DNA of 64,000 bases from the NCBI GenBank assembly GCA_035636315.1, contig DASPZJ010000021.1, positions 1,667 to 65,666 on the forward strand, given 5' to 3'. This DNA comes from Thermoplasmata archaeon (lineage in GTDB: Archaea > Thermoplasmatota > Thermoplasmata > RBG-16-68-12). The notes under the pieces were generated by a model that searched no databases, was not told the origin of the DNA, and worked only from the letters and a program-made list of their open reading frames with translations. This document shows, in pieces, positions 4,526 to 55,001 of this stretch (the first letter of the stretch is position 1; every line of letters begins with the position of its first letter). Both the position numbers and the translations under genes were made by a program.

Positions 4526-5014
4526 ATGCCCGAACGACCAGCAAGGGTTCATTTCCTCGTGTTGCGGTTTGACCGCTTCGAAATGAAGGCCGAGAACCGA
4601 GCCCTCGCGGTGGCTGTGCTGACATTCGTCCTGGTTGTCGCCGGAGCCGCAGCCTACGTCCTCTCGGTCCCCACCGTGCTCGTCGTCCCCGCCGGAAGGG
4701 TTTTCTCGGAGAGCGAGGCCCAGACGTGGGCTCGCCACTTTACGGTCTCCGGGGCGGGCGCACACGTGGTTGGAGCTTGGACCGCGTTCGACGGGTACGG
4801 ATGGCCCGGCCTCGTGGTGTTGAACGGGACCGTGGAGAAGCCTTGGCCGCCTCCCGTTATGTTCTGCCCCCTCGAACATTCGTGGACCCGGTTCAATGGG
4901 AGCATCGACGTGCCCGTCACCACAGGTCCCCATACGGTGTACTGGACCACGGGCTACTGTTCGGACGCCTCGAAAATCGTCGTGACCGAACCGATCCTGA
5001 TCGTGTACCGCTGA
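4526..5014 (+). CDS. Hypothetical N-terminally anchored exported protein
   Basis: TM helix ALAVAVLTFVLVVAGAAAYVLSV, probably starting at MKAENR (4583). Contains an NGT sequon. No family recognised. Confidence 0.45.
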   Translation: MPERPARVHFLVLRFDRFEMKAENRALAVAVLTFVLVVAGAAAYVLSVPTVLVVPAGRVFSESEAQTWARHFTVSGAGAHVVGAWTAFDGYGWPGLVVLNGTVEKPWPPPVMFCPLEHSWTRFNGSIDVPVTTGPHTVYWTTGYCSDASKIVVTEPILIVYR

Positions 5015-11300: not shown

Positions 11301-11902
11301 GCCCCGCGGACGCCCTCGTGGACCACGGCACGATCACCCTCGTCGCAACGTCGACGACGGACGGCACGACCCAGGGCAGCGTCGACCTCCAAGTCGACAT
11401 CGTCCGAACCCGGGGCCTCTCCCTGTCCCTCGACCCCACCTCGGGCGTGTTCGACGGCCGCTTCCTGAACTATACGCTCACGATCACGAACTCCGGAAAC
11501 GCCGCCGAGACGGTCAACGTGGAGATCACGAACCCCGATGACCTCGCGGCGAACGGCTGGATCGCCCGGCTCGGCACCACGGGCGGGGCGGCGACCGACA
11601 TCCGCCTTTCGGGCGTCTCGGTCCCGGCGAACTCGACGACGAAGGTGCGCCTCCAGTCGCAATCGTCCGGCGGCGCGAGCGGCGCGACCGTGATCGTCCG
11701 AGCGTCCGCGCAAGACTCGATGGCGGTCTCCTCGACGGGTTTCTTCACGCTCCAGATGCCGGTCCTCGCCACCGGCCCCATCACGGTTGGCGGGCCGAAC
11801 ATCGCCCGCGAAGCGCCGCTCAACCTGCAGCTCCTCGCGGCCGTCGTCGCCGCCGTGGCGGCGGTCGGAGCGGGGCTCTTCCTGACCCGCCGGAGGCGGT
11901 GA
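5399..11902 (+). CDS. aglB: Archaeal oligosaccharyltransferase AglB (STT3 family) fused to ~10 CarboxypepD_reg-like beta-sandwich repeats and a C-terminal TM anchor (2167 aa)
   Basis: Multi-TM N-terminal region, GGSDSYYWDRA loop motif, WWDYG catalytic motif (LSWWDYGFEAV). The C-terminal ~1250 aa contain repeated G.V.D..G.P..GA.V...T.T...G.Y units with many N-x-S/T sequons. Ends with LLAAVVAAVAAVGAGLFLTRRRR*. TTG start. Confidence 0.9.
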   Translation: MQEEKGWLHAHWRTGLILVLIFGVALFVRVYFVYGLSLATAAPSQCDANYVPTYSGGSDSYYWDRALCYSFQTGKDLGTDRMLNYPVSFPNPRPPLFPWFSLLVGRVLAPLFNNAWDAVYFVFLLSSGLFGALIVFPTYAMGKEAFGRKAGLIGALLIAISVGNLQRSNSTDADHDAFTLFFVVSTFYFFLRALKTMKGRRWVENWFQRESISAGFGGFFRENRTSVLYALLAGLCVTVIALAWQGWAYVSVILLVWFAAEMFVDRFRNEDPMGAWILFTIALATPILLAFQWYYVRNNIRVWFDVPAYLFLASIVVGFAFTVTRDYPWTLVIPSTLIAGAVGLAVGVAVNPTLASAFVTGAGYFIQSKLVTTIAEDQAPGMSQLILSFGLFTFGMSLLAIAYMLWQIPRRREPAYRIAVIWTFVAVFMAITAARFIFNASPAFAIAAGYAIDLVLVRADFAGMRRTYRSLAEGNWRNAVRKSLKVRHVLAALGVVFLVLVPNVWFGLDAAIPFELKAQYDRQVASTLPSFLRAPSYNPSSNSPFYFGAFGYALPKPTDYYPAAWTWFRTQDADEPPELRPAYLSWWDYGFEAVDRGAHPTVADNFQNGYALAGQFITAQNETQGIALLAVRLIEGDFRAHSLTIGPEVRDILTAYGISADTFAAVLGHPNVYVAVVLADPVTYGVWDSNMHPLNAQYILLSHLLTARFGEERMVDLYHALRDATGTDIGYFAVDSRLFPINAQNTGIFYAPVKLSDHRVIQLADGRVLAPDFFQIFVNTTRATNIQIQFLQPGDQVRSSRIAYQPAFYNSMFYRAYVGYSPTELGFPNNPAIPGLDPGMQSFPPVPAWNLTHWRVVYRTSYYNPYLDVSNHTDAWQAMNYLDAQKKQADIQAGKIKGTADLSTISSIASGVVFLRYYDGAWVNGTVSADSVPLAGVNITVTDELGTPHYRTATDASGHYSVLVPFGNITITASVGRPSTNMVGTRTLATATLAVSEDQAMRVPADSDGDGVPDWIMTRDLHVPAHSESGTLYFDLDRNSAFQGGDVVLPGAVLTFTDKEFPYQRTVTSRPDGSFTVSTLPPGTYALTVQANGRTVRAADGTIGTADVTANVAVPYAGIKGLATSSLGGSVAGATIDAVDETNGTTLRFTAGSDGSYALRPLMAGNYTLTAASGNLASNPTLVRAANVDVWLNLTLRPSGTVAGTTTVFGTARPFASLEFQSAMDPSMVRTVTSDASARYAIRLPAGEWFVSGRSYDGTTLYATLGRVLVAAGATSSLDIMFVQGVRVTGTVFDPNPAVRNPQAAVAFANGAGQRWLTTSGTGGYLALLPVGTYDLQAFNAVAASFGSIALLTSQTVDIRLVNASEAVGGSVYRDIDGNGALNPGEAIAGARIALTDDTGAHVSLTTNATGGFSVPLFGNHTYAGSVSAAGFETRAIPASSPASLRTLLPIALVPTPVAVQGSVVLNGAPLLNRPVTVRAVAIGEGAVTQTTLTDSNGGYGFRLVPGTYDLLVDENVSTTRDWRYQNAGSDGIEVSVAQASLGYDIAIVTRTRVTGSVTLSGVPQSASLSFDGPEHRTAEATTAGFEVYLVPGSYAVSGSKQIVPDRYSFISTATVPAANLTYALVKATRVAGHALFNGAGVVGPMPVSFARAEGGRVNVSTDSAGAFAAYLVPGNYTVTLTGTNTATESGAPRFYTYAFTGGLTVAPGAADIAFNLSVSRDLDNTTVSGIVSFGGFGVDTTVTFTARGGGAVAATTSSASNGSYSVGLAPGTYDVYAARSLGSAVSLLRITVPHAAQDTRNIPLTSGFILSGVTTNAQGARTSASIAIQSAAVLDLTSDGSGSYSTVLPAGVYAVSATKTGTENGISVTYQTATSVALQSDTVANLALEKVVSRSVVLSWDGSQRQTISAGSSVTYTIVVRNTGNVADTWSLSGRPADWEVSFVPSTVSLNFGTSGTSAAVVVTLTSPADALVDHGTITLVATSTTDGTTQGSVDLQVDIVRTRGLSLSLDPTSGVFDGRFLNYTLTITNSGNAAETVNVEITNPDDLAANGWIARLGTTGGAATDIRLSGVSVPANSTTKVRLQSQSSGGASGATVIVRASAQDSMAVSSTGFFTLQMPVLATGPITVGGPNIAREAPLNLQLLAAVVAAVAAVGAGLFLTRRRR

Positions 11903-16407: not shown

Positions 16408-17727
16408 TCATCCGCGGATCTTCTGCATCCGCTCGACCTTCCGTCTCACGATTTCGGGCTTCCCGATATCCCGGCGCGCATAGAAGTTCCCGGCGACGAA
16501 CGCGAGCGCTTCCTCGGAAATCGATTCGGCCGCGCCGAGGTCCGACGCGATGCCGACGACCGCGAGCGCCCGGGACGTCGTCGTGTACAGGTGACCGCCC
16601 CGCTGGTCGACGCTGGCGTAGTAGAGCCTCGACCCGGTGCGGCGGATGCTCTCCTCGTCGACCTTGAGCTGCTCGCCGGCCTTCGGATGGGAGCCGTAGC
16701 CCATCGGCACGACGTACTTGCACACGGTCGCCTTGCGGGAGAACTTCACGTTCGACGGAAGGTTGCCGCCGGTGAGGCGCACGCAGACATCGAGGAAGTC
16801 GCCCTCGAGGATCGGGAGGACGTTCATCGATTCGGGATCGGCGAAACGCACGTTGTACTCGAGGAGCTTGGGCCCGTCCCGCGTGGCCATGAAGCCGCCG
16901 TACAAGATCCCTTTGAACGGCGTGTCGCGGGCGAACATCGCATCGACGGTCTTCGTCATCGTCTCCAGCGCGTGCTCGTACTCGTCCCGCGTGACGAACG
17001 GAAGCAGGTGGTCCACATCGCTGTACGAGCCCATCCCGCCCGTGTTGGGGCCCTTGTCCCCTTCGTACGCGCGCTTGTGATCCTGAGCAATCGGCATCGG
17101 GACCAGCGAGCGGCCGTCGCAGAACGCTTGGAGGGAGAACTCTTCGCCGAGGAGTTTCTCCTCCACGAGGAACCGTGCCGTCCCACCGATGTTCTTCTCG
17201 AGGATCTCCCGACCGTACGCGAGGGCCTCGGGCTTCGTGGAGAAATGTTCGCCCCAGACCCGCACGCCCTTGCCGCCCGTGAGCCCGAGCGGCTTGATCA
17301 CGAACTCGAAATCGGAGTCGTTCACAAACTCCTCGAAGCGCGCGAGGTCGTCGAAGGCCCAGAACTGCGGGGCGCCTCGGATACGGTGCTCTCGCATCAG
17401 CGTCCGCGTGAATTCCTTGTTCGTCTCAAGCCGAGCCGCTTCCCGCGACGGGCCGACCGTCGAAATCGCGGCGGCCTCAAGGGCATCCGTGATGCCCCTC
17501 TCGAGCGGCGCCTCCGGTCCGACCACCGCGAGTTCGATCCCGTGGCCTTTCGCCCAGGAGACGATGCGCTCGATGTCGGTCACATCGCCGAGGAGGATTT
17601 CCTTCGAGCGACGACGGATGCCCGGATTCTGATTCGCCATCGCCGCGTAGATCTCCGCTTGGCTTCGGTGGAGCGCTTCGACGATGGCGTGCTCGCGACC
17701 TCCGCCGCCCACCACCAAGACCTTCAT
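16408..17727 (-). CDS. purD: Phosphoribosylamine--glycine ligase PurD
   Basis: MKVLVVGGGGREHAIVEAL..., ATP-grasp core, C-terminal PurD domain. The 38-aa R/S-rich N-terminal extension of the ORF is rejected. ATG at 17727. Confidence 0.9.
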   Translation of the reverse strand: MKVLVVGGGGREHAIVEALHRSQAEIYAAMANQNPGIRRRSKEILLGDVTDIERIVSWAKGHGIELAVVGPEAPLERGITDALEAAAISTVGPSREAARLETNKEFTRTLMREHRIRGAPQFWAFDDLARFEEFVNDSDFEFVIKPLGLTGGKGVRVWGEHFSTKPEALAYGREILEKNIGGTARFLVEEKLLGEEFSLQAFCDGRSLVPMPIAQDHKRAYEGDKGPNTGGMGSYSDVDHLLPFVTRDEYEHALETMTKTVDAMFARDTPFKGILYGGFMATRDGPKLLEYNVRFADPESMNVLPILEGDFLDVCVRLTGGNLPSNVKFSRKATVCKYVVPMGYGSHPKAGEQLKVDEESIRRTGSRLYYASVDQRGGHLYTTTSRALAVVGIASDLGAAESISEEALAFVAGNFYARRDIGKPEIVRRKVERMQKIRG

Positions 17728-17920
17728 GGTTGCAATGCGGAGAAGGCGGAGGCCGGGATTTCTAGTTTCGCGCACGCCGCTGAATCCCGAATCACTTCCG
17801 CGTTTGCATGAGCTTGAGGAAGTTCCCCTCCGAGTCTCCAAATGTCACAACGCTCCCCCAAGGATAATCGCCGATTCACACTCCGAGGGGGCGCGCGCTG
17901 GTGGTCTCGAGGGCTGGTCA

Positions 17921-21800: not shown

Positions 21801-23336
21801 ATGGTTTCCGCCCGCCGGGCCCTCCTCAGCGTGTCCGAAAAGGAGGGTCTCATCGAGTTCGCGCGCGGATTGCGGGACCTCGGTTTCGAGTTCATCGCGA
21901 CGGAGGGCACGACCAAGGCCCTGAAGGAGGCCGGCATCGCCGCGGTGACGGTCGCGGAGTACACGGGGCTGCGCGAGGGTCTCGGCGGCCGTGTGAAGAC
22001 CTTGCATCCTCGAATCTTCGCCGGCATCCTCGCACCGCGCGGGGACGAGCCGGATCTCGCGGACCTCGGCGCCGTGGCGATCGACCTCGTCGTTGCGAAC
22101 CTCTATCCGTTCGAGGCGACCGTCGCGAAGCCTCGCGTCGACCTGGCGGAGGCGATCGAGAACATCGACATCGGCGGCGTGACCCTGATCCGCGCGGCGG
22201 CGAAGAACGCCGCTCGGGTCGCCGTCGTCGTGCACCCCGCTCGGTATCCGCAGGTGCTCCGCGCAATCCAGGAACAGAAGGCCGTGCCCCCGCGGCTCCG
22301 CGACGAGCTCGCCCTGGAGGCGTTCGAGTACACGTCGCGATACGACGCCGCGATCTTCAACTACCTCGCGAAGCGGCAAGGCCAGGTCCTCCCGCCGGCT
22401 CTCCGCCTGGCGTACGATAAGATCGCGGACCTCCGGTACGGTGAGAATCCGTACCAGAAGGCGGCGCTGTACCGGGAGTCGTTCCCGTACGCAGCGACCG
22501 CGACGGCAGAGAGGCTCCAGGGCAAGGAACTCTCCTACAACAACCTCATCGACCTCGACGCCGCGCTCCGGATCGTCACGGAATTCGATCGGCCGGCGGC
22601 CGTCGTGATCAAGCACACGAACCCGGCCGGTGTCGCCGTTTCCTCAGACCTCGAGCGGGCGTATGCGGCGGCGCACGCGTGCGATCCCATCTCCGCGTAC
22701 GGAGGTGTCGTGGGGCTGAACCGGACCGTCGACGTCCCGACCGCCAAGGCGATGCGCGGAGACGTCCTCGACGCCGTCATCGCGCCAGGGTACGAACCGC
22801 AGGCGCTCGCAATCTTGCGGCAGAAGAAGAAGGGAGACTTCCTGATCCTGCGGACGCACGGAGAGCTCCGAAGGGCGCACGGCATCGACATGGTCCGAGT
22901 CCTAGGAGGCGTCCTCCTTCAGACGACGGACTTCCCGGAGCCGAGGCCGGAGGCATTCAAGGTGGTCACGAAGACCTCTCCGACCGCAGACCAGATGCGG
23001 GACATCTTGTTCGGGATCACGGTGAGCCGGTACGTCAAGTCGAACTCGATCGTCCTCGTGAAAGGCGACCGCACGGTCGGCATCGGAGCGGGACAGATGA
23101 GCCGCGTGGACGCGTGCATGGTCGCGCGGATCAAGGCGGGGGACGCCGCCCGAGGGAGCGTCGCCGTGAGCGACGCGTACTTCCCCTTCCGGGATGGCCT
23201 CGACGAGCTCGCGAAGGGGGCCGTCGCGACCGTCGCGCAGCCGGGCGGCTCGATCCGCGATGCCGAGGTGATCGCCGCGGCGGAGGAACACGGGATCGCC
23301 ATGGTCTTCACGGGAATCCGGCTGTTCAAGCACTGA
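21801..23336 (+). CDS. purH: Bifunctional AICAR transformylase/IMP cyclohydrolase PurH
   Basis: MGS-like N-terminal domain (ALLSVSEKEGLIEFARGL..., GGRVKTLHPRIFAGILA) plus the AICARFT domain. Confidence 0.9.
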   Translation: MVSARRALLSVSEKEGLIEFARGLRDLGFEFIATEGTTKALKEAGIAAVTVAEYTGLREGLGGRVKTLHPRIFAGILAPRGDEPDLADLGAVAIDLVVANLYPFEATVAKPRVDLAEAIENIDIGGVTLIRAAAKNAARVAVVVHPARYPQVLRAIQEQKAVPPRLRDELALEAFEYTSRYDAAIFNYLAKRQGQVLPPALRLAYDKIADLRYGENPYQKAALYRESFPYAATATAERLQGKELSYNNLIDLDAALRIVTEFDRPAAVVIKHTNPAGVAVSSDLERAYAAAHACDPISAYGGVVGLNRTVDVPTAKAMRGDVLDAVIAPGYEPQALAILRQKKKGDFLILRTHGELRRAHGIDMVRVLGGVLLQTTDFPEPRPEAFKVVTKTSPTADQMRDILFGITVSRYVKSNSIVLVKGDRTVGIGAGQMSRVDACMVARIKAGDAARGSVAVSDAYFPFRDGLDELAKGAVATVAQPGGSIRDAEVIAAAEEHGIAMVFTGIRLFKH

Positions 23337-29225: not shown

Positions 29226-31361
29226 ATGGCGAAGATCCTCGTCTGCGTCGCCTGGCCGTACGCGTCGGGACCCCGGCATCTGGGCCACGCCGTCTCCACG
29301 TTCATCCCGGCGGACGTCGTCGCCCGCTTCCACCGGATGAAAGGGGACGAGGTGCTCATGGTGGGCGGGACGGACATGCACGGCACGCCCACGATGGTCC
29401 GCGCGGATCAGGAAGGGGTGTCGCCCGCCGTCATCGCGGAGCGATATCACGCGCTCGATGCGAAGAACATCGAGCAGCTCGGCGTGCGATACGATCTCTA
29501 TTGGAACACCGCGGCCGCGAACCACAAGAAGTGGGTGCAGGAGATCTTCCTCCGGCTCCGAGACCGAGGCCACGTCTACGAGGCGATGATGACCTCGCCG
29601 TTCTGCCCGACGGGAAACCACTTCCTCCCGGATCGCTACGTCGAGGGCACCTGCCCGATCTGCGGGTTCCCGAAAGCCCGGGGGGACCAATGCGACAACT
29701 GCACGAACCTGATGGATCCGTTCCAGCTCATCGACCCGAAGTGCAAGATCCACGGCACGACGCCGGTCCCGCGGGAAACGAAGCATTTCTTCTTTCGGCT
29801 CACCGCGTTCCAGGAACGCCTGGCGAGGTGGGCCTCCGAGGACAAGGAGCACTGGAGGCACCACGTCCTCACCTTCACCCGGTCGTGGCTCCAGGAAGGA
29901 TTGAAAGATCGGCCGATCACCCGCGATCTCGACTGGGGCATCGAGGTCCCGGTCCCCGGGTACGAGACGAAACGGATCTACGTTTGGTTCGAGGCCGTGA
30001 TGGGCTATCTGACCGCGACGAGGGAGTGGTACCGCCGCCGCGGGGCGCCGGATGGGTGGAAAGACTTCTGGTACGATCCCGAGGCCCGTCATTACTACTT
30101 CATCGGCAAGGACAACATCGTATTCCATACGATCTTCTGGTCGGCGATCCTCCTCGGGTACGACGAGCGGCTCGTCCTGCCGTACGACGTGCCCGCGACG
30201 CAATACCTGAACTTCTCGGGCGAGAAGATGAGCGCGGGGAGGGGGAAAGGCGTCTGGCTCCCGGACCTCCTGGAACGGTTTGACCCGGACCAACTCCGGT
30301 ACTACGGCATCGCGACGATGCCCGAGACGAAGGACACGGACTTCGAATGGGCGGACTTCGCGCAGCGGAACAACAGCGAGCTGCTCGCGGTCTACGGGAA
30401 CTTCGTCCACCGCGCCCTCACATTCGCGGACAAGAACTTCAATCACGAGGTGCCTCCGGCCGGCTTCCTCGACGCGGTCGACAAGGCGATGGTCCGCGCG
30501 ATCGAGCAGCAGTGGAAGCACGTCGGCCAGAATCTCGAATACGTGCACCTGAAGGACGCGATGAAGGACGCGATCCAGCTCGCCCGGCTCGGGAACCAGT
30601 ACATCGACCAGAAGGCTCCGTGGGACCTGATCAAGAAGGATCGGGCGGCGTGCGGCACGGCGATCCACATCGCGCTGAGGGTCACGCGCTCCCTCGCGAT
30701 CGTCATGGCACCGTTCCTGCCGTTCAGTTCCTCTCGCCTTTGGCACGCCGTCGGATACGACTCGGAGGTGCACGAGCGACGGTGGGAGGACGCGCTCGAC
30801 GACGTACCAGCCGGGCAACGGCTTCGCGTCGGGAAGCCCCTTTTCACGAAGATCGAACTCGCGGACGCGAAGGACGACCTCTCGAGTCGGTTCGACATCC
30901 GGGTCGCGAAGGTCGTCGACGTCCAGCCGCACCCGAACGCCGATAACCTGTACGTGCTGCAGGTCGACCTGGGGGACGAGCGTCGACAGATCGTCGCCGG
31001 GATTCGGAAGGATTACTCGATTGATCAGCTCCGCGGTCGGAAGATCGTCCTGCTCGCGAACCTCGAGCCCGCGAAGCTCCGTGGAGTCGAGAGCCGAGGC
31101 ATGCTCCTCGCGGGGGAAACTAAAGCCGACGTCGGACTGGCCCTACCTCCCGAGGACGCGCCGGTGGGTTCGCAGGTGTTCGGCGAGAAGGGCGCGGACG
31201 TCCTCCCGTTTTCGGAGTTCCAGAAGTTGAAGCTCGAGGTGGGCCCTGGGGGCACCGTCCTCTTCCTCGGCCACGACGGAGAAGTCCGTGTGACCTTCGC
31301 CGTGGACGGGATCCCGCTCACCGTCGACAAGCGGCTGCCCGAGGGGACCTGGATCCACTAG
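29226..31361 (+). CDS. metG: Methionyl-tRNA synthetase with C-terminal tRNA-binding (EMAP-like) domain
   Basis: WPYASGPRHLGHAVS (HIGH-class motif), zinc-knuckle CPICG...CDNC, KMSAGRGKG (KMSKS variant), C-terminal OB-fold. Confidence 0.95.
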   Translation: MAKILVCVAWPYASGPRHLGHAVSTFIPADVVARFHRMKGDEVLMVGGTDMHGTPTMVRADQEGVSPAVIAERYHALDAKNIEQLGVRYDLYWNTAAANHKKWVQEIFLRLRDRGHVYEAMMTSPFCPTGNHFLPDRYVEGTCPICGFPKARGDQCDNCTNLMDPFQLIDPKCKIHGTTPVPRETKHFFFRLTAFQERLARWASEDKEHWRHHVLTFTRSWLQEGLKDRPITRDLDWGIEVPVPGYETKRIYVWFEAVMGYLTATREWYRRRGAPDGWKDFWYDPEARHYYFIGKDNIVFHTIFWSAILLGYDERLVLPYDVPATQYLNFSGEKMSAGRGKGVWLPDLLERFDPDQLRYYGIATMPETKDTDFEWADFAQRNNSELLAVYGNFVHRALTFADKNFNHEVPPAGFLDAVDKAMVRAIEQQWKHVGQNLEYVHLKDAMKDAIQLARLGNQYIDQKAPWDLIKKDRAACGTAIHIALRVTRSLAIVMAPFLPFSSSRLWHAVGYDSEVHERRWEDALDDVPAGQRLRVGKPLFTKIELADAKDDLSSRFDIRVAKVVDVQPHPNADNLYVLQVDLGDERRQIVAGIRKDYSIDQLRGRKIVLLANLEPAKLRGVESRGMLLAGETKADVGLALPPEDAPVGSQVFGEKGADVLPFSEFQKLKLEVGPGGTVLFLGHDGEVRVTFAVDGIPLTVDKRLPEGTWIH

Positions 31362-32431: not shown

Positions 32432-32508
32432 GCGGTGGTCCCAGACCGGCCCCGATGGAAGCCTCGCGGGATTAAACCTTTCCGACCTAAATCTCAGGGG
32501 GAAAACGG

Positions 32509-35734: not shown

Positions 35735-35853
35735 CGCCGAGGGGGAGACTTTCAGGCAGCCGTCACATGAGCGGCGGGAGCCATTTGAACTCCCGAGGAC
35801 TTGCGCCCACCAGCTCTCCAAGCTGGCGCCCTACCGGACTAGGCGACCTCGGC
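35735..35853 (-). tRNA. tRNA-Ser (anticodon GGA) with a long variable arm and an apparent 35-nt intron within the T-loop (position 59/60 or 60/61)
   Basis: Manual cloverleaf on the minus strand: acceptor GCCGAGG/CCTCGGC; D-arm GCCT-AGTCCGGTA-GGGC; anticodon arm CCAGC-TTGGAGA-GCTGG (U33, GGA, purine 37); V-arm GGGC-GCAA-GTCC; T-stem GGGAG + TTCAAAT. The matching CTCCC-CCTCGGC-G resumes 35 nt later (35748..35782 is the putative intron). Discriminator G73, then an oligo-T tail. TATA-like tttatta sits ~30 nt upstream (35883..35889). Confidence 0.6.
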
Positions 35854-48237: not shown

Positions 48238-48567
48238 TCAGAAGAACTTCCGGAAACGCGCGAGGTCCTCGAGGCTTCCCTTCAATTTGATCTTTCCCGT
48301 CGCATACGCCTTGAATGGGCCAATCTCCCGCAGGATCAGCGCGCGGAGCGTGCCGGCGTCCGTGACGATCGTGATGTCCGCGTGGTCGACGCCGCCGTCG
48401 AGCAACGCGGCGACCTTCGCATCCTTCACGATGAAATGATACTTCGTCCCATCCTTGAGCTCAATCATCACGGTCTTCGAGAGATCGGAGAGCTCTGCGC
48501 GGAACGCGGGGTCCGATTCGACCTTCGCGTTGAACTTCTGGATCAGGTCCTCGAGCATCTCCCTCAT
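48238..48567 (-). CDS. SCP2 sterol-carrier-like domain protein
   Basis: MREMLEDLIQKFNAKVESDPAFRAELSDLSKTVMIELKDGTKYHFIVKDAKV...ATGKIKLKGSLEDLARFRKFF. The 24-aa upstream extension is rejected. Confidence 0.65.
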   Translation of the reverse strand: MREMLEDLIQKFNAKVESDPAFRAELSDLSKTVMIELKDGTKYHFIVKDAKVAALLDGGVDHADITIVTDAGTLRALILREIGPFKAYATGKIKLKGSLEDLARFRKFF

Positions 48568-49220
48568 GACTTGCCCCCGCCGAACTCGTCGAGTTTCCGG
48601 ATGCGCGATTCCGCAATCAGGCGGCGAGCCGTGTCCCACGAGGCCCGCGTGTGCGGCGGAAGAGAGCCATGGTCCCTAATCCATGTTTCCAGGAACGCGA
48701 TCGTCACGGCGTCGTGCGAGTAACCCGACCCGATCGGCACGCCGAACTCCTGTTCGATTGACCGCATCTCGCGATCGCGGCGGACCTTCGCGAGGATCGA
48801 TGCCGCGCTGACGACGGGGAAGAGCTCGTCCGCGTTGTGCTGCGAGACGATCTCGACGGCGAACGGCAGCTCGCGCTGCACCGCGCGCTTGAACTCGATC
48901 TCGTCGACGTCCGCCGCGTCGACGTACGCGGTCTCGGGCCGGAGCTTGTCGATGAGCTCCGCGAAGAGCTTCGCCTCGAAGTCGTTCAGGGACATCTCGG
49001 CCCGCATGACGTCGATCCGTTCCGCCGGGATGACGAGGACCTCGTGACGCGCCACCTTCTCGATCTCCGGGGCCAGGAGCTCCCGCCGTTCCGGGGTGAG
49101 TTTCTTCGAGTCGCGGACGTTCATCTGCCGCAGCGGCACGTCCGACTCGATCGCGACGCACGCGACGACGAGAGGCCCGAGGACCGGGCCGCGGCCCGCC
49201 TCATCGACACCCGCGATCAC
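48564..49220 (-). CDS. rnhB: Ribonuclease HII
   Basis: MIAGVDEAGRGPVLGPLVVACV, DSKKLTPERRE, the AYVDAADVD region, ASILAK. Confidence 0.9.
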   Translation of the reverse strand: MIAGVDEAGRGPVLGPLVVACVAIESDVPLRQMNVRDSKKLTPERRELLAPEIEKVARHEVLVIPAERIDVMRAEMSLNDFEAKLFAELIDKLRPETAYVDAADVDEIEFKRAVQRELPFAVEIVSQHNADELFPVVSAASILAKVRRDREMRSIEQEFGVPIGSGYSHDAVTIAFLETWIRDHGSLPPHTRASWDTARRLIAESRIRKLDEFGGGKS

Positions 49221-49223
49221 GGA

Positions 49224-50501
49224 TCAGGCCTCGAACAGCTCCCGAGCCGTCTCCTGAGCTCGGGTGACGACCTCCGATTCGTCAACGGTCCGGAGGACGC
49301 CATCCAACATGAGGACATGACCATCGACGATCGTCGCCCGCACATCGCTCCCCCGGCAACTGTAGACGAGGTGACTGATGACGTTAGCGGGATAAAAAGG
49401 CGTAGTGTGCGCTCCCTTGAGCGACACGACCGCGAGGTCTCCGCGTTTCCCCACTTCGATCGATCCGATCTCGGCGTCAGCACGAAGCGCTCGGGCTCCG
49501 TCGATCGTCGCGAGATCGAGGACCGTCTGTGCCGGCAGCAGCGCCGCATCCCACCGCGTCGCCTTGTGAAGCAGGCCGGTGATCTTCATCGTCTCGAACA
49601 TGTCCATCCCGTTGTTCGAGATCGGCGAGTCCGTGCCGAGTCCTGTCGGAACGCCCTCGCGAATCATCTCGGGGACAGGCGCGACTCCTCCCGAGGCGAG
49701 CTTCATGTTCGAGACCGGGCAGTGGGCGACGCTCACCCCGTGGTGGGCGAGCGTCCGCACCTCGTTGATCGTCACCCAGACGCAATGCGCGGCCGTTAGC
49801 CCTCCATCGAGGAAGCCGATCTTCTCGAGCCACTCGACGGGACGCAGGCCGGTCCTCGCCCGATGGCCTTCGACCTCGCCGCGCGTCTCCGACAGATGCG
49901 TGTGCATCCGGACCCGATGACGCGAAGCAACCTCCTTCGCCTTCGCGTACGTCTCCTCGGAGGCGGCGTAGACTCCCTGGACTCCGACGGACGGGGTGAC
50001 GAGTGGGTCGCCTGCGTGCTTCGCGACGAACTGTTCCGCGTTCTTCACGGGATCCCCGTGCTGCGTCGTCGCGGCCTCGTCGAGCGTCACCCACGACAGG
50101 AAGCCCCGCACGCCGGACTCCCGCACGGCCCGCGCGACCTCGTCCTCCCAGTAGAAGAGGTCGTGGAAGCTCGTCGTCCCGGAGCGGATCATCTCGACGC
50201 ATCCCAGGAGTGCGCCGACCTGCACATCTCGCCGCGTGAGTTTCGCGTCGATCGCCGAGGCCCTGGAGATCATCTCCTCGAGTGGGACGTCGTCCGCGAT
50301 GCCACGGAGAAGCGTGTTCGCGACGTGTTGATGAAGGTTGACGAAGCCGGGCAGGACCGCGCAACCCGAGCAATCGATCACCTCGTCCGCGGTTGCGGCG
50401 ACGGCGCCCACCGCCGCGATCCGATCGCGTTCCACGAGGACGTCGCCCGTCATGATCCGCCGCCGGGCGTCCTGGGTGACGATGAGTCCGCCGCGGAGCA
50501 T
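49224..50501 (-). CDS. mtaD: Amidohydrolase of the MtaD/DadD family (5'-methylthioadenosine/S-adenosylhomocysteine/5'-deoxyadenosine deaminase-like)
   Basis: LPGFVNLHQHV, HTHLSET, AHCVW, LGTDSPISNNGMDMFETM match metal-dependent deaminase motifs. ATG at 50501. The 60-aa R-rich extension is rejected. Confidence 0.75.
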   Translation of the reverse strand: MLRGGLIVTQDARRRIMTGDVLVERDRIAAVGAVAATADEVIDCSGCAVLPGFVNLHQHVANTLLRGIADDVPLEEMISRASAIDAKLTRRDVQVGALLGCVEMIRSGTTSFHDLFYWEDEVARAVRESGVRGFLSWVTLDEAATTQHGDPVKNAEQFVAKHAGDPLVTPSVGVQGVYAASEETYAKAKEVASRHRVRMHTHLSETRGEVEGHRARTGLRPVEWLEKIGFLDGGLTAAHCVWVTINEVRTLAHHGVSVAHCPVSNMKLASGGVAPVPEMIREGVPTGLGTDSPISNNGMDMFETMKITGLLHKATRWDAALLPAQTVLDLATIDGARALRADAEIGSIEVGKRGDLAVVSLKGAHTTPFYPANVISHLVYSCRGSDVRATIVDGHVLMLDGVLRTVDESEVVTRAQETARELFEA

Positions 50502-50572
50502 GAGTGACAAGGCAGCCGCGTCGATGCAACGTTGTGTAGAAAGGTTTTGCGGGCGCGCATCGATACGCCGGC

Positions 50573-51517
50573 GTGGACGAGTTCCCGGACGCTCTGGATC
50601 GATGCCTGCGCCAAATTCCTCGCGGTCGTGTTGCGACGTGCGGCGCCATCGCACGCGCCCTCGGTGACGTCCGCGCGGCACGAGCGGTCGCCTCCTGGTT
50701 GACCGAGCACCCGGCGATCCCGGCCGCCCACCGAGTCGTCCGGGCCGACGGACGACCCGTGCTGCCGGACGCGAGCCACGAGCTCGCGAGTGAACGTGTC
50801 CCGGTTCGGTCGGGCCACGTGCCGGCGAATCGATTCGTGACGATCCGGACGGCCGTGCCGCTCCTCGACCGGCTACGGCGGGAGCAACGGCACCTCGCGT
50901 CCCTGGTGACCGAGGAAGACGCGGGCGGCGCCGCGGAGCGAATCGCGGGCGTCGATGTGTCGTACGACACGGATCGCATGTATGCGGCGGCGGTCTGCGT
51001 CGACGCGATCACGCTCGCCGTGGTCGAAGTCGCAACGGCCACGAGCGCCGTTTCGTTCCCGTACATCCCCACGTACCTTGCGCGGCGCGAGTTTTCGGGA
51101 ATCGAGGCGGTGGTCCGTAGCTTTTCAAGGATGCCGGACGTCCTGATGGTGGACGGCCACGGACGCTTGCATCCCGCGCTGTTCGGTGTCGCGTGCGACG
51201 TCGGCGTGCGCCTCGACATCCCGACAATCGGAGTGGCGAAACATCTCCTCGCCGGAAGGGCGATGAAGCCGTCCGGAGGCGACAAGGCCGCGATTCCGAT
51301 CGCACTCGGCGGCGACATACGCGGCTATGCGTGGGTCCCTCCGGGCGCGGCCAGGCCCATTTTCATCTCCGTGGGTCATCGGATCTCCCTCGTGACGGCG
51401 CTGGACCTCGTGAGGAGGACCACACGATCCCGGTATCCGGAACCACTCGCGCTGGCCGATCGAGCATCCAAAGAAATGAAAAGGAATGAAAAACGGGAAA
51501 AGGGTGCGAAGCGGTGA
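50573..51517 (+). CDS. nfi: Fusion protein: N-terminal MGMT-like DNA-binding domain lacking the active-site Cys (alkyltransferase-like, ATL) + C-terminal endonuclease V (Nfi)
   Basis: N-terminal IPRGRVATCGAIARALG...HPAIPAAHRVVRADG resembles the Ogt C-terminal domain, but IPCHRV is replaced by IPAAHRVV. C-terminal GVDVSYDTDRMYAAAVCVD...FPYIPTYLARREF...MVDGHGRLHPALFGVACDVGVRLDIPTIGVAK matches EndoV. Confidence 0.75.
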   Translation: MDEFPDALDRCLRQIPRGRVATCGAIARALGDVRAARAVASWLTEHPAIPAAHRVVRADGRPVLPDASHELASERVPVRSGHVPANRFVTIRTAVPLLDRLRREQRHLASLVTEEDAGGAAERIAGVDVSYDTDRMYAAAVCVDAITLAVVEVATATSAVSFPYIPTYLARREFSGIEAVVRSFSRMPDVLMVDGHGRLHPALFGVACDVGVRLDIPTIGVAKHLLAGRAMKPSGGDKAAIPIALGGDIRGYAWVPPGAARPIFISVGHRISLVTALDLVRRTTRSRYPEPLALADRASKEMKRNEKREKGAKR

Positions 51518-51563
51518 GGCGCTACCATCGCGGGTCACCGCGAAGGTTGTGCGGGCAAGCGGC

Positions 51564-51620
51564 CTATCTCTTCTTTTTCTTGCCCTTCTTCTTCTTGGCC
51601 ACTCGTTTCCTCCCTGTCAT
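51564..51620 (-). CDS. Candidate leaderless 18-aa Lys/Arg-rich micropeptide (MTGRKRVAKKKKGKKKKR), speculative
   Basis: ATG preceded by ttttaaaa ~17-25 nt upstream (leaderless geometry) inside the AT-rich bidirectional promoter region 51621..51735. Composition is reminiscent of eL41-type ribosomal micropeptides. It could instead be a non-coding polypurine tract. Confidence 0.2.
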   Translation of the reverse strand: MTGRKRVAKKKKGKKKKR

Positions 51621-51735
51621 CTATATCGTCTAGGGGGTTTTAAAAGTAGCGAAGCCTGGATAAATGGGTTATTTTGCGAATTTTATAAAAAAGACGGGAT
51701 GCGAGAGGCGAATCGAAACCGTTTTTTCTGCGCGA

Positions 51736-52677
51736 ATGCATGCGAGAGCGGTGCGAATCGTCGTCTTCGGAGCGGGCGCCATGGGGAGTTTCTTCGGCGG
51801 TCTCCTGTCGCGACGTTATGACGTGACGCTCATCGGGAGAGCCGAGCACATGGCGGCGATTCGCGCGCGCGGCCTCCGGATCACCGGGAAGACGGCGATG
51901 ATCGCGAGGCCCCGCACGGCGACGCGCATTCCGCACGGAGTGAAGCCCGAGCTGATTCTCGTCACGACGAAGTCGTACGACATCGACAAGGCGATGATCG
52001 CGCTGCGTCCCTTCGCGGACGAGGCGTTGTTCGTGACGTTTCAGAACGGCCTCGGGAACGCCGAGGCGATCGCGAAGGTCGCGAAACGTGTCGTCGCGGG
52101 CACGACGACGCACGGAGTGACGTCTCTCGGGCCGGGCGAGATTCGCCACGCGGGCGTCGGCGAAACCGTCCTCGGTGCGTGGGTCGGCATCCGTGAAGCG
52201 GACCTCGTTCGCCTGCGAGACCTGCTCGCGGATGCGGGCGTCGTCGTGCGGATCACCGACGATGTCAAGACGGAGCTCTGGTCGAAGCTCGTCGTGAACG
52301 CGTCGATCAATCCACTGGCCGCCCTCGCGGGGGTCCCGAACGGACGGCTCGTCCGTGACAAGGGTCTCCTGGCGAGCCTCGAGGCCGTGTGCCGCGAGGC
52401 CGCGACCGTCGCGAAGGCAGAGGGTGCGGCGGTCGATCCGGACGAACTCTACCACCGCACCGTCCTTGTCGCACGGCGGACCGCCGCGAACCGCGGCAGC
52501 ATGCTCCAAGACCTCGACCGTCACCGACGTACGGAAATCGATTCGATCACCGGGGCCGTCGTCCGGGCCGCTGCACGACACGGAATCCCCGTGCCGCTCA
52601 ACCGGGCTCTGCTGGCGCTCGTCCGCGCGAGGGAATCGACGGGACGGGAGGCATCCGACGGGAACGTCACCGACTAA
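51736..52677 (+). CDS. panE: 2-dehydropantoate 2-reductase (PanE/ApbA family)
   Basis: Rossmann N-terminus VRIVVFGAGAMGSFFGGLL, KSYD, TFQNGLGN, and a C-terminal ApbA domain. Alternative upstream start at 51664. ttttataaaaaa TATA element at ~51683..51694. Confidence 0.75.
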   Translation: MHARAVRIVVFGAGAMGSFFGGLLSRRYDVTLIGRAEHMAAIRARGLRITGKTAMIARPRTATRIPHGVKPELILVTTKSYDIDKAMIALRPFADEALFVTFQNGLGNAEAIAKVAKRVVAGTTTHGVTSLGPGEIRHAGVGETVLGAWVGIREADLVRLRDLLADAGVVVRITDDVKTELWSKLVVNASINPLAALAGVPNGRLVRDKGLLASLEAVCREAATVAKAEGAAVDPDELYHRTVLVARRTAANRGSMLQDLDRHRRTEIDSITGAVVRAAARHGIPVPLNRALLALVRARESTGREASDGNVTD

Positions 52678-52757
52678 GCTTTATAACGGACTATTTAACT
52701 CCCCTCCCCGCCGGCCCCCGTCTGCGCCCCTCGATCAGAGCGGAGAGGGTTGGAGGC

Positions 52758-53312
52758 ATGACCTTGGCGAAAATCAAGATCGAGAACGTGGTCGCGTCGA
52801 CCTCCCTCGGGGAGCAACTCGACCTTCAGGCAATCGCCCTCGCCCTCGGCGGCGCCGAGTACGAGCCGGAGCAGTTCCCCGGACTCATCTACCGCCTGAA
52901 GGAGCCGAAGACGGCGACCCTCCTGTTCCGAAGCGGCAAGGTCGTCTGCACCGGCGCGAAGAGCCTCGAGCACGTCAAGACCGCGATCGACATGGTCGCG
53001 AAGCAGATCGAGGCCGCCGGCATCCCGATCAAGAAGAACCCGGAAATCGAGGTCCAGAACATCGTCGCCTCATCGGACCTCGGGACGGAGATCAACCTGA
53101 ACGCGATCGCGATCTCCCTCGGCCTGGAGAAGGTCGAATACGAGCCGGAGCAGTTCCCCGGACTCGTGTACCGGATCGACGAGCCGAAGGTCGTCGTGCT
53201 GCTGTTCGGCAGCGGCAAGCTCGTCTGCACGGGCGCCCGGAAACCGCAGGACGTCGAGCAGGCCGTCGAGAAGATCACCCAGGAGCTCAAGGCCGCCGGA
53301 CTCCTCCGCTGA
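52758..53312 (+). CDS. tbp: TATA-box binding protein
   Basis: Two direct repeats (IENVVASTSLGEQLDLQAIAL...EYEPEQFPGLIYRL...LLFRSGKVVCTGAKS and the second copy VQNIVASSDLGTEINLNAIAI...EYEPEQFPGLVYRI...LLFGSGKLVCTGARK). Confidence 0.95.
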   Translation: MTLAKIKIENVVASTSLGEQLDLQAIALALGGAEYEPEQFPGLIYRLKEPKTATLLFRSGKVVCTGAKSLEHVKTAIDMVAKQIEAAGIPIKKNPEIEVQNIVASSDLGTEINLNAIAISLGLEKVEYEPEQFPGLVYRIDEPKVVVLLFGSGKLVCTGARKPQDVEQAVEKITQELKAAGLLR

Positions 53313-53337
53313 GCTCGGGCCGTCCGCCGGAGGTCCG

Positions 53338-53781
53338 ATGAAGGAGATCCGGACGGAGATCGACATCGAGGCCTCGGCGGGCCGCGTCTGGGATTCCCTC
53401 ACGGACTTTCCCGCGTTCCCGGAATGGAATCCGTTCATCCGCCGAATCTCCGGCGAACCGAAAGTCGGCACGAAGCTCGAGGTGTTCATGCAGTCCTCGG
53501 GCACTCGGGGGATGAAGTTCCGACCGACCGTCATGAAGGTGGAGCGGGACCGCGAACTCCGGTGGCTCGGCCACCTCGCCGTTCCCGGATTGTTTGACGG
53601 CGAGCACATCTTCGAGATCGAGGAACTCGGGGCGAAGCACGTGCACTTCGTCCATCGCGAGCGGTTCCGGGGCATCCTCGTGCCGCTTCTAGCACGGACC
53701 CTGGATCGCGACGCGAAGCGAGGGTTCGAGGAGATGAATCGGGCGCTTCGCACCCGGGCGGAGTCGATCCCGCCAATCTGA
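53338..53781 (+). CDS. SRPBCC (START/Bet v1/polyketide-cyclase-like) family protein
   Basis: EIDIEASAGRVWDSLTDFPAFPEWNPF...GTKLEVFMQSSG... pattern and size. Confidence 0.7.
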   Translation: MKEIRTEIDIEASAGRVWDSLTDFPAFPEWNPFIRRISGEPKVGTKLEVFMQSSGTRGMKFRPTVMKVERDRELRWLGHLAVPGLFDGEHIFEIEELGAKHVHFVHRERFRGILVPLLARTLDRDAKRGFEEMNRALRTRAESIPPI

Positions 53782-54722: not shown

Positions 54723-55001
54723 TCACGAGTTTCGTACGTGAAACCCTTTCGGGTCGCCTCGCGGTGACGTCCACGAGATCTCGACGTCCGTCACCTGGGC
54801 GTACGGCTGCGACCCTCGGTTCCACTCGATGCACGCCTCGATGACGGACCGGTCGCCCTCGAAGACCGCCTCGACGCTCCCGTCGGGGAGGTTCTGCACG
54901 TATCCGTCGAGGCCGAGCGACTCCGCCTTCTCCGCACAGTGCGCGCGGAAGTAGACGCCCTGCACGCGGCCGCGGAAGATCACGCGGGCCCGGCCCTTCA
55001 C
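54723..55001 (-). CDS. acyP: Acylphosphatase
   Basis: VIFRGRVQGVYFRAHCAEKAESLGLDGYVQNLPDGSVEAVFEG (VQGVxFR signature). Confidence 0.9.
   Translation of the reverse strand: MKGRARVIFRGRVQGVYFRAHCAEKAESLGLDGYVQNLPDGSVEAVFEGDRSVIEACIEWNRGSQPYAQVTDVEISWTSPRGDPKGFHVRNS

What the first reader, a model, noticed from the sequence alone, without database searches (positions are those of the whole stretch)
50573..51517. Alkyltransferase-like (Cys-less MGMT domain) fused to endonuclease V
The C-terminal two-thirds is an unambiguous endonuclease V. The N-terminal ~90 aa resemble the DNA-binding/active-site domain of O6-alkylguanine-DNA alkyltransferase, but the acceptor cysteine of the PCHR motif is replaced (IPAAHRVV). 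An active AGT-EndoV fusion has been reported in Ferroplasma. Here the AGT half looks like a catalytically dead alkyltransferase-like (ATL) damage sensor fused to a nuclease. That would couple alkyl-lesion recognition to incision rather than to suicide repair.
Basis: partly seen in the sequence, partly recalled or inferred. Interest (0 to 1): 0.6.

Follow-up and report, generated by a model that had tools for sequence, protein, structure and literature searches.

The report
Cysteine-less alkyltransferase-fold domain fused to endonuclease V
This gene from an uncultured soil archaeon encodes the DNA-repair nuclease endonuclease V joined to a catalytically dead remnant of an alkyl-damage repair domain; such fusions have been reported before and turn out to be common, so the find is largely ordinary apart from an unexplained, strictly conserved cysteine.

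Summary
ORF 50573-51517 (+, 314 aa, GTG start) has a PF01035 alkyltransferase (AGT) DNA-binding domain at aa 9-62 and an endonuclease V (EndoV) domain at aa 108-297. Ala52 sits where AGTs have the acceptor cysteine.

The "ATL damage sensor" reading is only partly supported. The arginine finger (R37) and helix-turn-helix are kept. The base-flipping tyrosine that defines both AGT and alkyltransferase-like (ATL) proteins is replaced by Cys23, which is invariant in more than 100 relatives. The active-site loop is about 6 residues shorter and the Asn hinge is changed.

The fusion is not rare. Of 111 diverse AGT-fold/EndoV fusions, 61 lack the acceptor cysteine. A 2023 review states that ATL-EndoV fusions were already reported in archaea.

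Conserved gene order makes the window gene the positional ortholog of canonical Tyr+PCHRV fusions in Methanomassiliicoccales. The active site therefore decayed in place, while both domains stayed under purifying selection (dN/dS 0.19 and 0.26).

Best reading: an active EndoV carrying a non-catalytic AGT-fold DNA-binding or base-probing module. Specific O6-alkylguanine sensing is possible but unproven. It is a new variant of a known kind, of modest interest.

The parts
50573..51517 (+). Whole gene: AGT-fold domain fused to endonuclease V. It is 314 aa with a GTG start, and the stop codon is included.
   Evidence: ORF list; Pfam PF01035 plus PF04493; 99%-identical 314-aa homologue P0001; GTG start conserved in L001-L030 orthologues.
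50573..50848 (+). N-terminal AGT C-domain/ATL-fold domain, aa 1-92.
   Evidence: PF01035 at 46.5 bits. The AF2 model of aa 1-96 has pLDDT 90.8. Foldseek gives 2kif ATL TM 0.77, Atl1 3gva TM 0.65 and AGT C-domains TM 0.6-0.67. dN/dS is 0.19 against L001.
50639..50641 (+). Cys23 codon (TGC), at the position of the base-flipping Tyr (hAGT Y114, Atl1 Y25).
   Evidence: It aligns to Tyr of Ada, Atl1, vpAtl, Pk-MGMT and Mt-OGT and of the Ferroplasma Type II fusion. It is invariant in 52/52 aligned relatives and in all listed full-length homologues.
50639..50707 (+). Helix-turn-helix, aa 23-45, including the Arg finger R37 (50681-50683).
   Evidence: Helices 23-30 and 33-45 appear in both AF2 models. 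R37 aligns with the Arg finger in 'AARAV'. R37 is 95% conserved in the clade; A27, L30 and G31 are about 100% conserved.
50726..50728 (+). Ala52 codon (GCC), at the position of the alkyl-acceptor Cys of the PCHR motif. It is followed by H53, R54, V55 and V56.
   Evidence: Alignments to Ada/OGT (Cys), Atl1 (Trp) and the Ferroplasma Type II fusion (Cys of IPCYKVV). In the clade this position is a variable small residue, A, G or S.
50732..50794 (+). Shortened active-site loop region, from R54 to E74.
   Evidence: This stretch is 21 residues here. The median is 27 in the 72 Cys-bearing fusions. It is 26 in human AGT (R147-E172, from the known sequence).
50894..51463 (+). Endonuclease V domain, aa 108-297. 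Its catalytic and wedge residues are D128 (50954-50956), the PYIP wedge at aa 163-166 (51059-51070), E173 (51089-51091), D194 (51152-51154), K223 (51239-51241) and H269 (51377-51379).
   Evidence: PF04493 at 174.7 bits. E. coli EndoV 4xpu matches at E 2.4e-32 with motifs GxDV, PYIPxxLxxRE, DGHGxxHP, GVAK and GHR aligned. Foldseek TM is 0.88 to 4xpu. D128, Y164, E173, D194 and K223 are invariant and H269 is at least 90% conserved in A1.
51470..51514 (+). Conserved basic C-terminal tail (KEMKRNEKREKGAKR).
   Evidence: It is conserved as 'REMKRNEKREKGATR' in most of the clade and lies in a predicted long terminal helix, aa 290-313. Its function is not tested.
50539..50548 (+). GAAAGGTTTT motif 25-34 nt upstream of the GTG start; a candidate archaeal promoter element, implying a leaderless mRNA.
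   Evidence: There are 5 matches (up to 1 mismatch) in the window against 0.81 expected. The same DNA is read as 'LERFCG'/'RKVLR' in over-extended gene calls of relatives. The promoter assignment is an inference.

Best explanation
The gene encodes a working endonuclease V. This is a Mg-dependent nuclease that nicks the second phosphodiester 3' of hypoxanthine and other deaminated bases. Its N-terminus carries an AGT-fold domain that can no longer carry out suicide alkyl transfer.

That domain has lost the acceptor Cys (Ala52), the base-flipping Tyr (Cys23) and about 6 residues of the pocket-forming active-site loop. It keeps the minor-groove helix-turn-helix and the Arg finger, and it is under purifying selection. 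It descends in place from a canonical AGT-EndoV fusion.

The most likely role of the N-domain is as a non-catalytic DNA-binding or base-probing module that tethers or guides EndoV on DNA, rather than as a classical ATL O6-alkylguanine sensor.

Shown: the architecture, the residue states, the fold, the conservation, the selection and the orthology. Inferred: EndoV activity, DNA binding by the N-domain, and the absence of alkyl transfer.
For: Domain calls are above the curated cut-offs. Residue alignments give A52 = acceptor Cys, C23 = Tyr and R37 = Arg finger. The EndoV catalytic residues and wedge are invariant, and the fold matches E. coli EndoV at TM 0.88. The N-domain fold matches ATL/AGT at TM 0.77-0.6.

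The loop from R54 to E74 is 21 aa against a median of 27 in Cys-bearing fusions, and the hinge is 15 aa against 17. The HTH and Arg finger are at least 90% conserved, and N-domain mean column identity (68%) is at least that of the whole protein (65%). dN/dS is 0.19 for the N-domain and 0.26 for EndoV against L001.

The order RNaseHII-amidohydrolase <-> fusion-ApbA-TBP is conserved through the clade. Fusion-ApbA adjacency extends to Methanomassiliicoccales loci that carry Tyr+PCHRV or intermediate forms (Tyr kept, Cys lost, loop 20 aa).

Loss of the acceptor Cys is common: 61 of 111 representative fusions lack it. It has occurred in taxonomically separate lineages while the HTH persists.
Against: No biochemistry exists for any Cys-less fusion, according to a literature search. 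The strict invariance of Cys23 is not explained by a plain tethering role. The His53/Glu74 pair that activates the Cys in AGTs is still mostly conserved (92% and 80%). ATLs also lack the Cys and still bind lesions tightly, so lesion sensing cannot be excluded from sequence alone. I could not obtain model coordinates, so pocket geometry and the relative orientation of the two domains were not examined.
Confidence: 0.6

Rival explanations
1. The N-domain is a true ATL-type sensor that flips O6-alkylguanine into a pocket without transfer. It hands the site to the fused EndoV, which incises. The result would be a single-polypeptide alternative excision pathway for alkyl lesions.
For: The domain has the ATL/AGT fold, and the best structural hit is an ATL. 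The acceptor Cys is replaced and the Arg finger is kept. The domain is under purifying selection. The literature reports ATL-EndoV fusions and speculates that EndoV acts like the NER nuclease XPG.
Against: The Tyr that the review lists as conserved in all AGTs and ATLs and as needed for flipping is absent. The active-site loop, which in Atl1 carries R69 and closes on the lesion, is about 7 residues shorter than in Atl1 (my own count on the Atl1 sequence recalled from memory, not a tool result). It is about 6 shorter than in Cys-bearing fusions. The position equivalent to the pocket Trp/Cys is a variable small residue, and even H53 varies in some members. EndoV is not known to cut at O6-alkylG.
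Confidence: 0.22
2. The nucleophile has been relocated. The invariant Cys23 at the pocket entrance, perhaps helped by His53/Glu74 or Cys11, accepts alkyl groups or another adduct. The protein would then still be a suicide repair enzyme, or a covalent or redox sensor that gates EndoV.
For: Cys23 is 100% conserved while the canonical acceptor position drifts. Clade-specific co-conserved residues are C11 (68%), W42 (78%), H46 (72%), R57 (92%) and D59 (95%). Tyr-to-Cys at this position recurs in unrelated fusions.
Against: By alignment, Cys23 replaces a residue that contacts the N3/3'-phosphate side of the flipped base, not the O6-alkyl side (established hAGT structure knowledge; not measured here). 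Planctomycete fusions have this Cys together with an intact PCHRVV and a full loop, so Cys23 did not arise as a substitute acceptor. The pocket loop is truncated.
Confidence: 0.07
3. The N-domain is an evolutionary relic with no function of its own. It is kept only because it is needed for folding or stability of the fused EndoV.
For: Catalytic features are lost progressively in an orthologous series.
Against: dN/dS of 0.19 is as low as for the EndoV domain. The DNA-contacting HTH and Arg finger are the best-conserved parts. The domain has been retained across more than 30 species-level genomes.
Confidence: 0.08

Closest known systems
AGTendoV of Ferroplasma acidarmanus (Kanugula et al. 2005 PNAS, as cited in PMC10779285) and its Thermoplasmatales relatives (Ferroplasma sp. 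Type II P0282, Picrophilus oshimae P0304)
   Same: The two-domain architecture is the same: the AGT C-domain only, followed by EndoV. Collinear identity to P0282 is 31% over the full length. The HTH, Arg finger and EndoV catalytic motifs are shared.
   Different: The Thermoplasmatales proteins keep Tyr ('TTYG') and an acceptor Cys in an IPCYKVV motif, with a full-length loop. The window protein has Cys23, Ala52 and a short loop, so it cannot use the demonstrated alkyl-transfer mechanism.
ATL-EndoV fusions noted in archaea (Tubbs et al. 2009 Nature; Pegg 2011; both cited in PMC10779285). The type is represented here by Thermoproteota/Nitrososphaerota loci L061, L064 and L065 with 'TTFG...GPWHRFV'.
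   Same: A Cys-less AGT-fold domain is fused N-terminally to EndoV, and the Arg finger is retained. Neither type has been characterised biochemically.
   Different: Those proteins carry the classical ATL Trp and an aromatic residue (Phe) at the Tyr position, and their loop is longer, at 23 aa. The window clade has Ala/Gly/Ser and Cys at these positions. I could not read the primary papers, so I do not know which organisms they described.
Stand-alone ATL proteins (S. pombe Atl1 3gva; V. parahaemolyticus ATL 2kif; E. coli Atl/YbaZ)
   Same: They are the best structural matches for the N-domain, at TM 0.77 and 0.65. They are single-domain proteins without the AGT N-domain, lack the acceptor Cys, and have the Arg finger.
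   Different: ATLs keep the Tyr and have a large pocket with a long closing loop and a C-terminal extension. They are not fused to a nuclease and act through NER.
Canonical endonuclease V (E. coli Nfi 4xpu; T. maritima 2w35)
   Same: The C-terminal domain matches E. coli EndoV at 38% identity and TM 0.88, and all catalytic and wedge motifs are present.
   Different: The canonical enzymes are single-domain proteins of about 220 aa.

Membership tests
Endonuclease V (PF04493) | Profile match above the curated threshold | tested here: met
   174.7 bits against a cut-off of 23.4, covering model positions 3-198 of 198. The NCBIfam equivalog NF008629 scores 158.8 bits, below its full-length cut-off of 230.
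Endonuclease V (PF04493) | Catalytic Asp/Glu/Asp (+Lys, His) and the PYIP wedge | tested here: met
   D128, P163-Y164-I165-P166, E173, D194, K223 and H269 align with E. coli EndoV motifs. All are invariant or at least 90% conserved in 52 relatives.
Endonuclease V (PF04493) | RNase H-like EndoV fold | tested here: met
   The AF2 model has pLDDT 93.5. Foldseek to 4xpu gives TM 0.88 and rmsd 2.6.
Endonuclease V (PF04493) | Cleavage of the second phosphodiester 3' to deoxyinosine | not testable with these tools
   This needs an enzyme assay.
O6-alkylguanine-DNA alkyltransferase (AGT/Ogt; PF01035 domain) | PF01035 match and AGT C-domain fold | tested here: met
   46.5 bits against a cut-off of 27. 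Foldseek TM to AGT C-domains is 0.6-0.67.
O6-alkylguanine-DNA alkyltransferase (AGT/Ogt; PF01035 domain) | Nucleophilic Cys in the (I/V)PCHR(V/I) motif | tested here: not met
   Ala52 aligns with the Cys of Ada, Mt-OGT, Pk-MGMT and the Ferroplasma-type fusion.
O6-alkylguanine-DNA alkyltransferase (AGT/Ogt; PF01035 domain) | Conserved Tyr (or Phe) at the pocket entrance that supports base flipping | tested here: not met
   Cys23 aligns with this Tyr and is invariant in the clade.
O6-alkylguanine-DNA alkyltransferase (AGT/Ogt; PF01035 domain) | HTH with Arg finger | tested here: met
   R37 lies in 'RAARAV' and is 95% conserved.
O6-alkylguanine-DNA alkyltransferase (AGT/Ogt; PF01035 domain) | Asn hinge and full-length active-site loop | tested here: not met
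   His46 sits at the Asn position and the hinge is 15 aa against 17. R54 to E74 is 21 aa against a median of 27 in Cys-bearing fusions.
Alkyltransferase-like (ATL) proteins | AGT C-domain fold without the AGT N-domain, with the acceptor Cys replaced | tested here: met
   The best structural matches are ATLs 2kif and 3gva. Ala is at the Cys position.
Alkyltransferase-like (ATL) proteins | Arg finger AND Tyr conserved (the review calls both conserved between AGT and ATL) | tested here: not met
   The Arg is present, but the Tyr is replaced by Cys23.
Alkyltransferase-like (ATL) proteins | Enlarged lesion pocket with a closing active-site loop (Atl1 R69) and a C-terminal extension loop | tested here: inconclusive
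   The loop is clearly shorter. The pocket geometry could not be inspected because no model coordinates were available.
Alkyltransferase-like (ATL) proteins | Tight O6-alkylG binding without transfer; hand-off to NER | not testable with these tools
   This needs binding and competition assays, plus genome-wide NER gene content.
AGT-fold/EndoV fusion family (AGTendoV / ATLendoV) | N-terminal AGT C-domain directly followed by EndoV in one ORF | tested here: met
   Shown. The architecture is shared by 111 of the top 150 representatives and by more than 60 species genomes.
AGT-fold/EndoV fusion family (AGTendoV / ATLendoV) | Common descent with canonical (Cys-bearing) fusions | tested here: met
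   Conserved fusion-ApbA adjacency links the window clade to Methanomassiliicoccales loci with Tyr+PCHRV (states).

The most novel reading that the evidence does not exclude
The invariant Cys23 sits where every AGT and ATL has the base-flipping Tyr. It could be a functional thiol at the mouth of a remodelled pocket. It might act as a relocated acceptor for alkyl groups or other adducts, or as a covalent or redox switch that licenses EndoV incision. The clade would then be a mechanistically new branch of the alkyltransferase superfamily rather than a dead remnant.
Probability: 0.07. Interest if true: 0.7.

Novelty: new variant of a known kind. Interest (0 to 1): 0.3.

Why it matters
AGT-fold/EndoV fusions are one of the few cases where two DNA-repair chemistries are hard-wired into a single protein. 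Only the Cys-bearing Ferroplasma enzyme has been studied.

This survey shows that more than half of diverse fusions have lost the acceptor cysteine while keeping the DNA-binding helix-turn-helix and Arg finger. In one syntenic gene lineage the decay can be followed step by step. This argues that the domain's selected role in the fusion is DNA binding or base probing for EndoV, not alkyl transfer. That would reframe the published speculation about ATL-EndoV.

The window's clade, with Tyr changed to an invariant Cys and a truncated loop, is the extreme end of the series. It is a convenient test case. If it still recognises O6-alkylguanine, the accepted list of essential ATL residues is wrong. 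If it does not, the fusion is simply an EndoV with a borrowed DNA clamp.

Tried and rejected
**Cys23 as the acceptor by alignment.** I rejected this. All pairwise HMM alignments put Cys23 on the Tyr and Ala52 on the acceptor Cys.

**A second AGT or EndoV gene in the window.** There is none. The family HMMs hit only this ORF in the six-frame translation, and there is no P[CW]HR motif elsewhere.

**Exact-sequence look-up of the window protein in public assemblies.** It is not on record. I used the 80%-identical P0003/L001 instead.

**Primary papers.** Kanugula 2005, Tubbs 2009, Tubbs 2007 and Pegg 2011 are not held. Their content is cited only through the review PMC10779285. A search for 'ATLendoV/AGTendoV' found only that review.

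**Foldseek against afdb50.** The library was unavailable.

**Foldseek of the full-length model.** It returned only EndoV and Argonaute-PIWI hits. A separate N-domain model was therefore built.

**Model coordinates.** They are not exposed, so distances around Cys23 and the orientation of the two domains could not be measured.

**Regex classification of motif states.** It misparsed a few sequences (L021, L023, L006), which I checked by eye.

**Fitch count of 34 state changes.** It comes from a rough NJ tree. It means only 'many independent changes' and is not an estimate.

**Whole-genome question.** I could not test whether genomes of this clade also carry a stand-alone ogt or NER genes, because only flanks are held.

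Full report
**Observation.** The window is 65.8% G+C. It has an ORF at 50573..51517 on the + strand, 314 aa with a GTG start.
- Pfam places PF01035 (the AGT DNA-binding/active-site domain) at aa 9-62 with 46.5 bits against a cut-off of 27.
- Pfam places PF04493 (endonuclease V) at aa 108-297 with 174.7 bits against a cut-off of 23.4.
- NCBIfam and PDB sequence searches agree. E. coli EndoV 4xpu matches at E 2.4e-32, with the GxDV, PYIPxxLxxRE, DGHGxxHP, GVAK and GHR motifs aligned.

**Active-site residues of the N-domain.** I ran phmmer alignments of aa 1-105 against solved structures.
- Ala52 of 'IPAAHRVV' aligns with the acceptor Cys of Ada-C, M. tuberculosis OGT and P. kodakaraensis MGMT, and with Trp of S. 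pombe Atl1.
- R37 of 'RAARAV' aligns with the Arg finger.
- Cys23 of 'VATCGAIA' aligns with the conserved Tyr (hAGT Y114, Atl1 Y25).
- A BLASTP alignment with the Ferroplasma sp. Type II 'O6-methylguanine-DNA methyltransferase/endonuclease V' gives the same equivalences, at 31% identity over the full length.

**Structure.**
- An AF2 model from a 52-sequence alignment is confident, with pLDDT 93.5 and pTM 0.88. Its C-terminal part superposes on E. coli EndoV at TM 0.88.
- A separate model of aa 1-96 has pLDDT 90.8. It matches V. parahaemolyticus ATL best (2kif, TM 0.77), then S. pombe Atl1 (0.65) and AGT C-domains (0.6-0.67).
- The fold is that of the AGT C-domain/ATL family.

**The family.**
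- The 5.8-billion-protein search gave 484 hits. The best 120 are almost all 300-350-aa fusions annotated, if at all, as 'endonuclease V [Thermoplasmata archaeon]'.
- In all full-length members Cys23 is present ('TCG'). The residue before 'HRV' is a drifting small residue (A, G or S, rarely others), and even the His varies.
- In the 52-sequence alignment the invariant N-domain residues are C23, A27, L30, G31, R34 and D59. R37 and the HRVV residues are at least 90% conserved. The EndoV residues D128, F162-P163-Y164, P166, E173, D194-G195-H196-G197 and K223 are invariant.

**How unusual is a Cys-less fusion?**
- A profile search of 1.84 billion 50%-identity representatives found 6428 hits.
- Of the best 150, 111 are AGT-fold/EndoV fusions. 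Fifty keep the acceptor Cys, 47 of them with Tyr or Phe. Sixty-one do not keep it: 12 have Trp there, 9 of them with Tyr/Phe (the classical ATL state), and 10 have Cys at the Tyr position like the window.
- In GTDB species genomes the window type occurs in about 30 uncultured Thermoplasmata, labelled 'Methanobacteriota archaeon EA_x', from soil and sediment. The closest are SMAG_U11571 (93%) and EA_23 (89%).
- Canonical Tyr+PCHRV fusions occur in Aciduliprofundum, Methanomassiliicoccus, Marsarchaeota and Micrarchaeota.
- Phe+PWHRF fusions occur in Thermoproteota and Nitrososphaerota.
- Thermoplasmatales (Ferroplasma, Picrophilus) have Tyr+IPCYKVV, with occasional Cys-less forms such as IPFHRV.
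- A rough NJ tree of the EndoV domain needs dozens of acceptor-Cys state changes. This number is only qualitative. Cys-less forms are nonetheless clearly present in taxonomically separate lineages.

**The domain is more degenerate than an ATL.**
- I split 179 aligned fusions into groups by residue state. In Cys-bearing proteins the stretch from the HR-Arg to the conserved Glu has a median of 27 residues; it is 26 in hAGT. It is 21 in the window clade and 20-23 in other Cys-less groups.
- The hinge between the recognition helix and HR is 15 residues instead of 17, with His46 at the Asn position.
- The missing residues correspond to the loop that in hAGT (N157-G160) and Atl1 (around R69) forms and closes the alkyl pocket. 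This mapping rests on established structures and on the description in PMC10779285.
- That review lists the HTH, the Arg finger and the Tyr as the features conserved between AGT and ATL. The window protein fails the Tyr criterion.

**It is not a decaying relic.**
- Mean column identity is 68% for the N-domain and 65% for the whole protein.
- Against the 80%-identical orthologue L001 (dS about 0.6), dN/dS is 0.19 for the N-domain and 0.26 for EndoV. More distant pairs give 0.12-0.45 and 0.18-0.30.
- The best-conserved N-domain positions are those of the DNA-contacting HTH and the Arg finger.

**Orthology.**
- The gene lies between a divergently transcribed Amidohydro_1 gene (preceded by RNase HII) and ApbA, TBP and an SRPBCC gene.
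- This order is conserved in essentially every locus of the clade. Fusion-ApbA adjacency extends to ten Methanomassiliicoccales loci. Some of these carry canonical Tyr+PCHRV with a 29-aa loop (L040, L041). Others are intermediates with Tyr kept, Cys lost ('PRHRVV', 'PTHRVV') and, in L044, a 20-aa loop.
- L042 and L046, sister Thermoplasmata with full synteny, have Phe or Tyr with Ser or Glu before HRVV; L042's loop is also 20 aa.
- The window gene is therefore the positional descendant of a canonical AGT-EndoV. The active site decayed in steps: first the Cys and the loop, then the Tyr.

**Mechanism.**
- Shown: an intact EndoV catalytic apparatus, and an AGT-fold domain without the canonical nucleophile, the Tyr or the full pocket loop. 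That domain has a conserved HTH and Arg finger and is under purifying selection.
- Inferred: the protein nicks DNA 3' of deaminated purines like other EndoVs. The N-domain binds the minor groove non-specifically and probes bases with the Arg finger, increasing EndoV's DNA affinity or search efficiency.
- I give this reading 0.6.
The loss of the Tyr and of the closing loop argues against it.
- A relocated-thiol model for the invariant Cys23 (0.07) is the most novel reading not excluded. Planctomycete fusions carry the same Cys together with an intact CPCHRVV and a full loop. Cys23 therefore did not arise as a replacement acceptor.
- A pure relic (0.08) is contradicted by the selection data.

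**Novelty.**
- The active AGT-EndoV fusion of Ferroplasma is established. According to the 2023 review, ATL-EndoV fusions in archaea have been reported and an XPG-like role has been speculated, without experiments.
- What is new here is modest. Cys-less fusions outnumber Cys-bearing ones among diverse representatives. There is a syntenic decay series. One soil Thermoplasmata clade has the Tyr replaced by an invariant Cys and a truncated loop.
- I rate it a new variant of a known kind, with interest 0.3.

Noticed in passing
window 5399-11902 (+): A giant ORF of 2167 aa. Its N-terminus matches the oligosaccharyltransferase STT3/AglB domain (PF02516, aa 46-450). This is followed by many CarboxypepD_reg/prealbumin-like beta-sandwich repeats (PF13620, 4 stretches, 140 bits). 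It is an unusually long AglB-type protein.
   Followed up: partly
window 50539-50548 (+); also 3079-3088 (+), 4695-4704 (+), 32473-32482 (-), 54741-54750 (-): The motif GAAAGGTTTT lies 25-34 nt upstream of the GTG start of the fusion gene. There are 5 matches (up to 1 mismatch) against 0.81 expected. It is probably an archaeal promoter element on a leaderless gene. In related MAGs, gene callers read through it, producing spurious N-terminal extensions ('...LERFCG...', for example P0077, P0115, P0116).
   Followed up: partly
L033, L051, L066 (Planctomycetes MAGs); representatives P0160-P0260: A subfamily of AGT-EndoV fusions carries a His/Cys-rich hinge, 'H-x-H-x(2-7)-C-x-C-H-R', for example HHPHDPACPCHRVV. 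It is found in 23 of 149 representatives. In named genomes it occurs only in Planctomycetes, where the Tyr position is also Cys. It looks like a possible metal site next to the acceptor Cys and is unexplained.
   Followed up: partly
L061, L064, L065 (Thermoproteota / Nitrososphaerota MAGs): These are EndoV fusions whose N-domain has the classical ATL signature: Phe at the Tyr position and 'GPWHRFV'. They are better candidates for a true ATL-EndoV than the window protein.
   Followed up: no
window 51470-51514 (+): A lysine/arginine-rich C-terminal tail (KEMKRNEKREKGAKR) is conserved almost verbatim across the clade. It lies in a predicted long terminal helix. It may be an extra DNA-binding element; this was not tested.
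   Followed up: no
window 48564-53781; L001-L039, L042, L046: The block RNase HII - Amidohydro_1 (divergent) | fusion - ApbA (ketopantoate reductase family) - TBP - SRPBCC is conserved across more than 30 species genomes. Only the fusion-ApbA pair persists in Methanomassiliicoccales.
   Followed up: yes
L028 (2440-3375) and L035 (2899-3177): In two syntenic loci the fusion gene appears broken. Only the N-domain is in frame, and the gap to ApbA is shorter in L035. These may be frameshifts, pseudogenes or assembly errors.
   Followed up: no
P0002, P0004-P0009, P0012 (database homologues, 232-272 aa): Several close homologues in public protein sets begin inside the N-domain, for example at '...PAIPAAHRVV' four residues from their start, and carry only the PF04493 label. 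This is probably because the true start is GTG. The fusion is therefore under-annotated in these lineages.
   Followed up: partly
window 35768-35849 (-): The single tRNA gene in the window is tRNA-Ser(GGA). Other housekeeping genes identified are MetRS (29226-31361), PurH (21801-23336), PurD (16408-17841), an M48 peptidase and an M24 peptidase.
   Followed up: no
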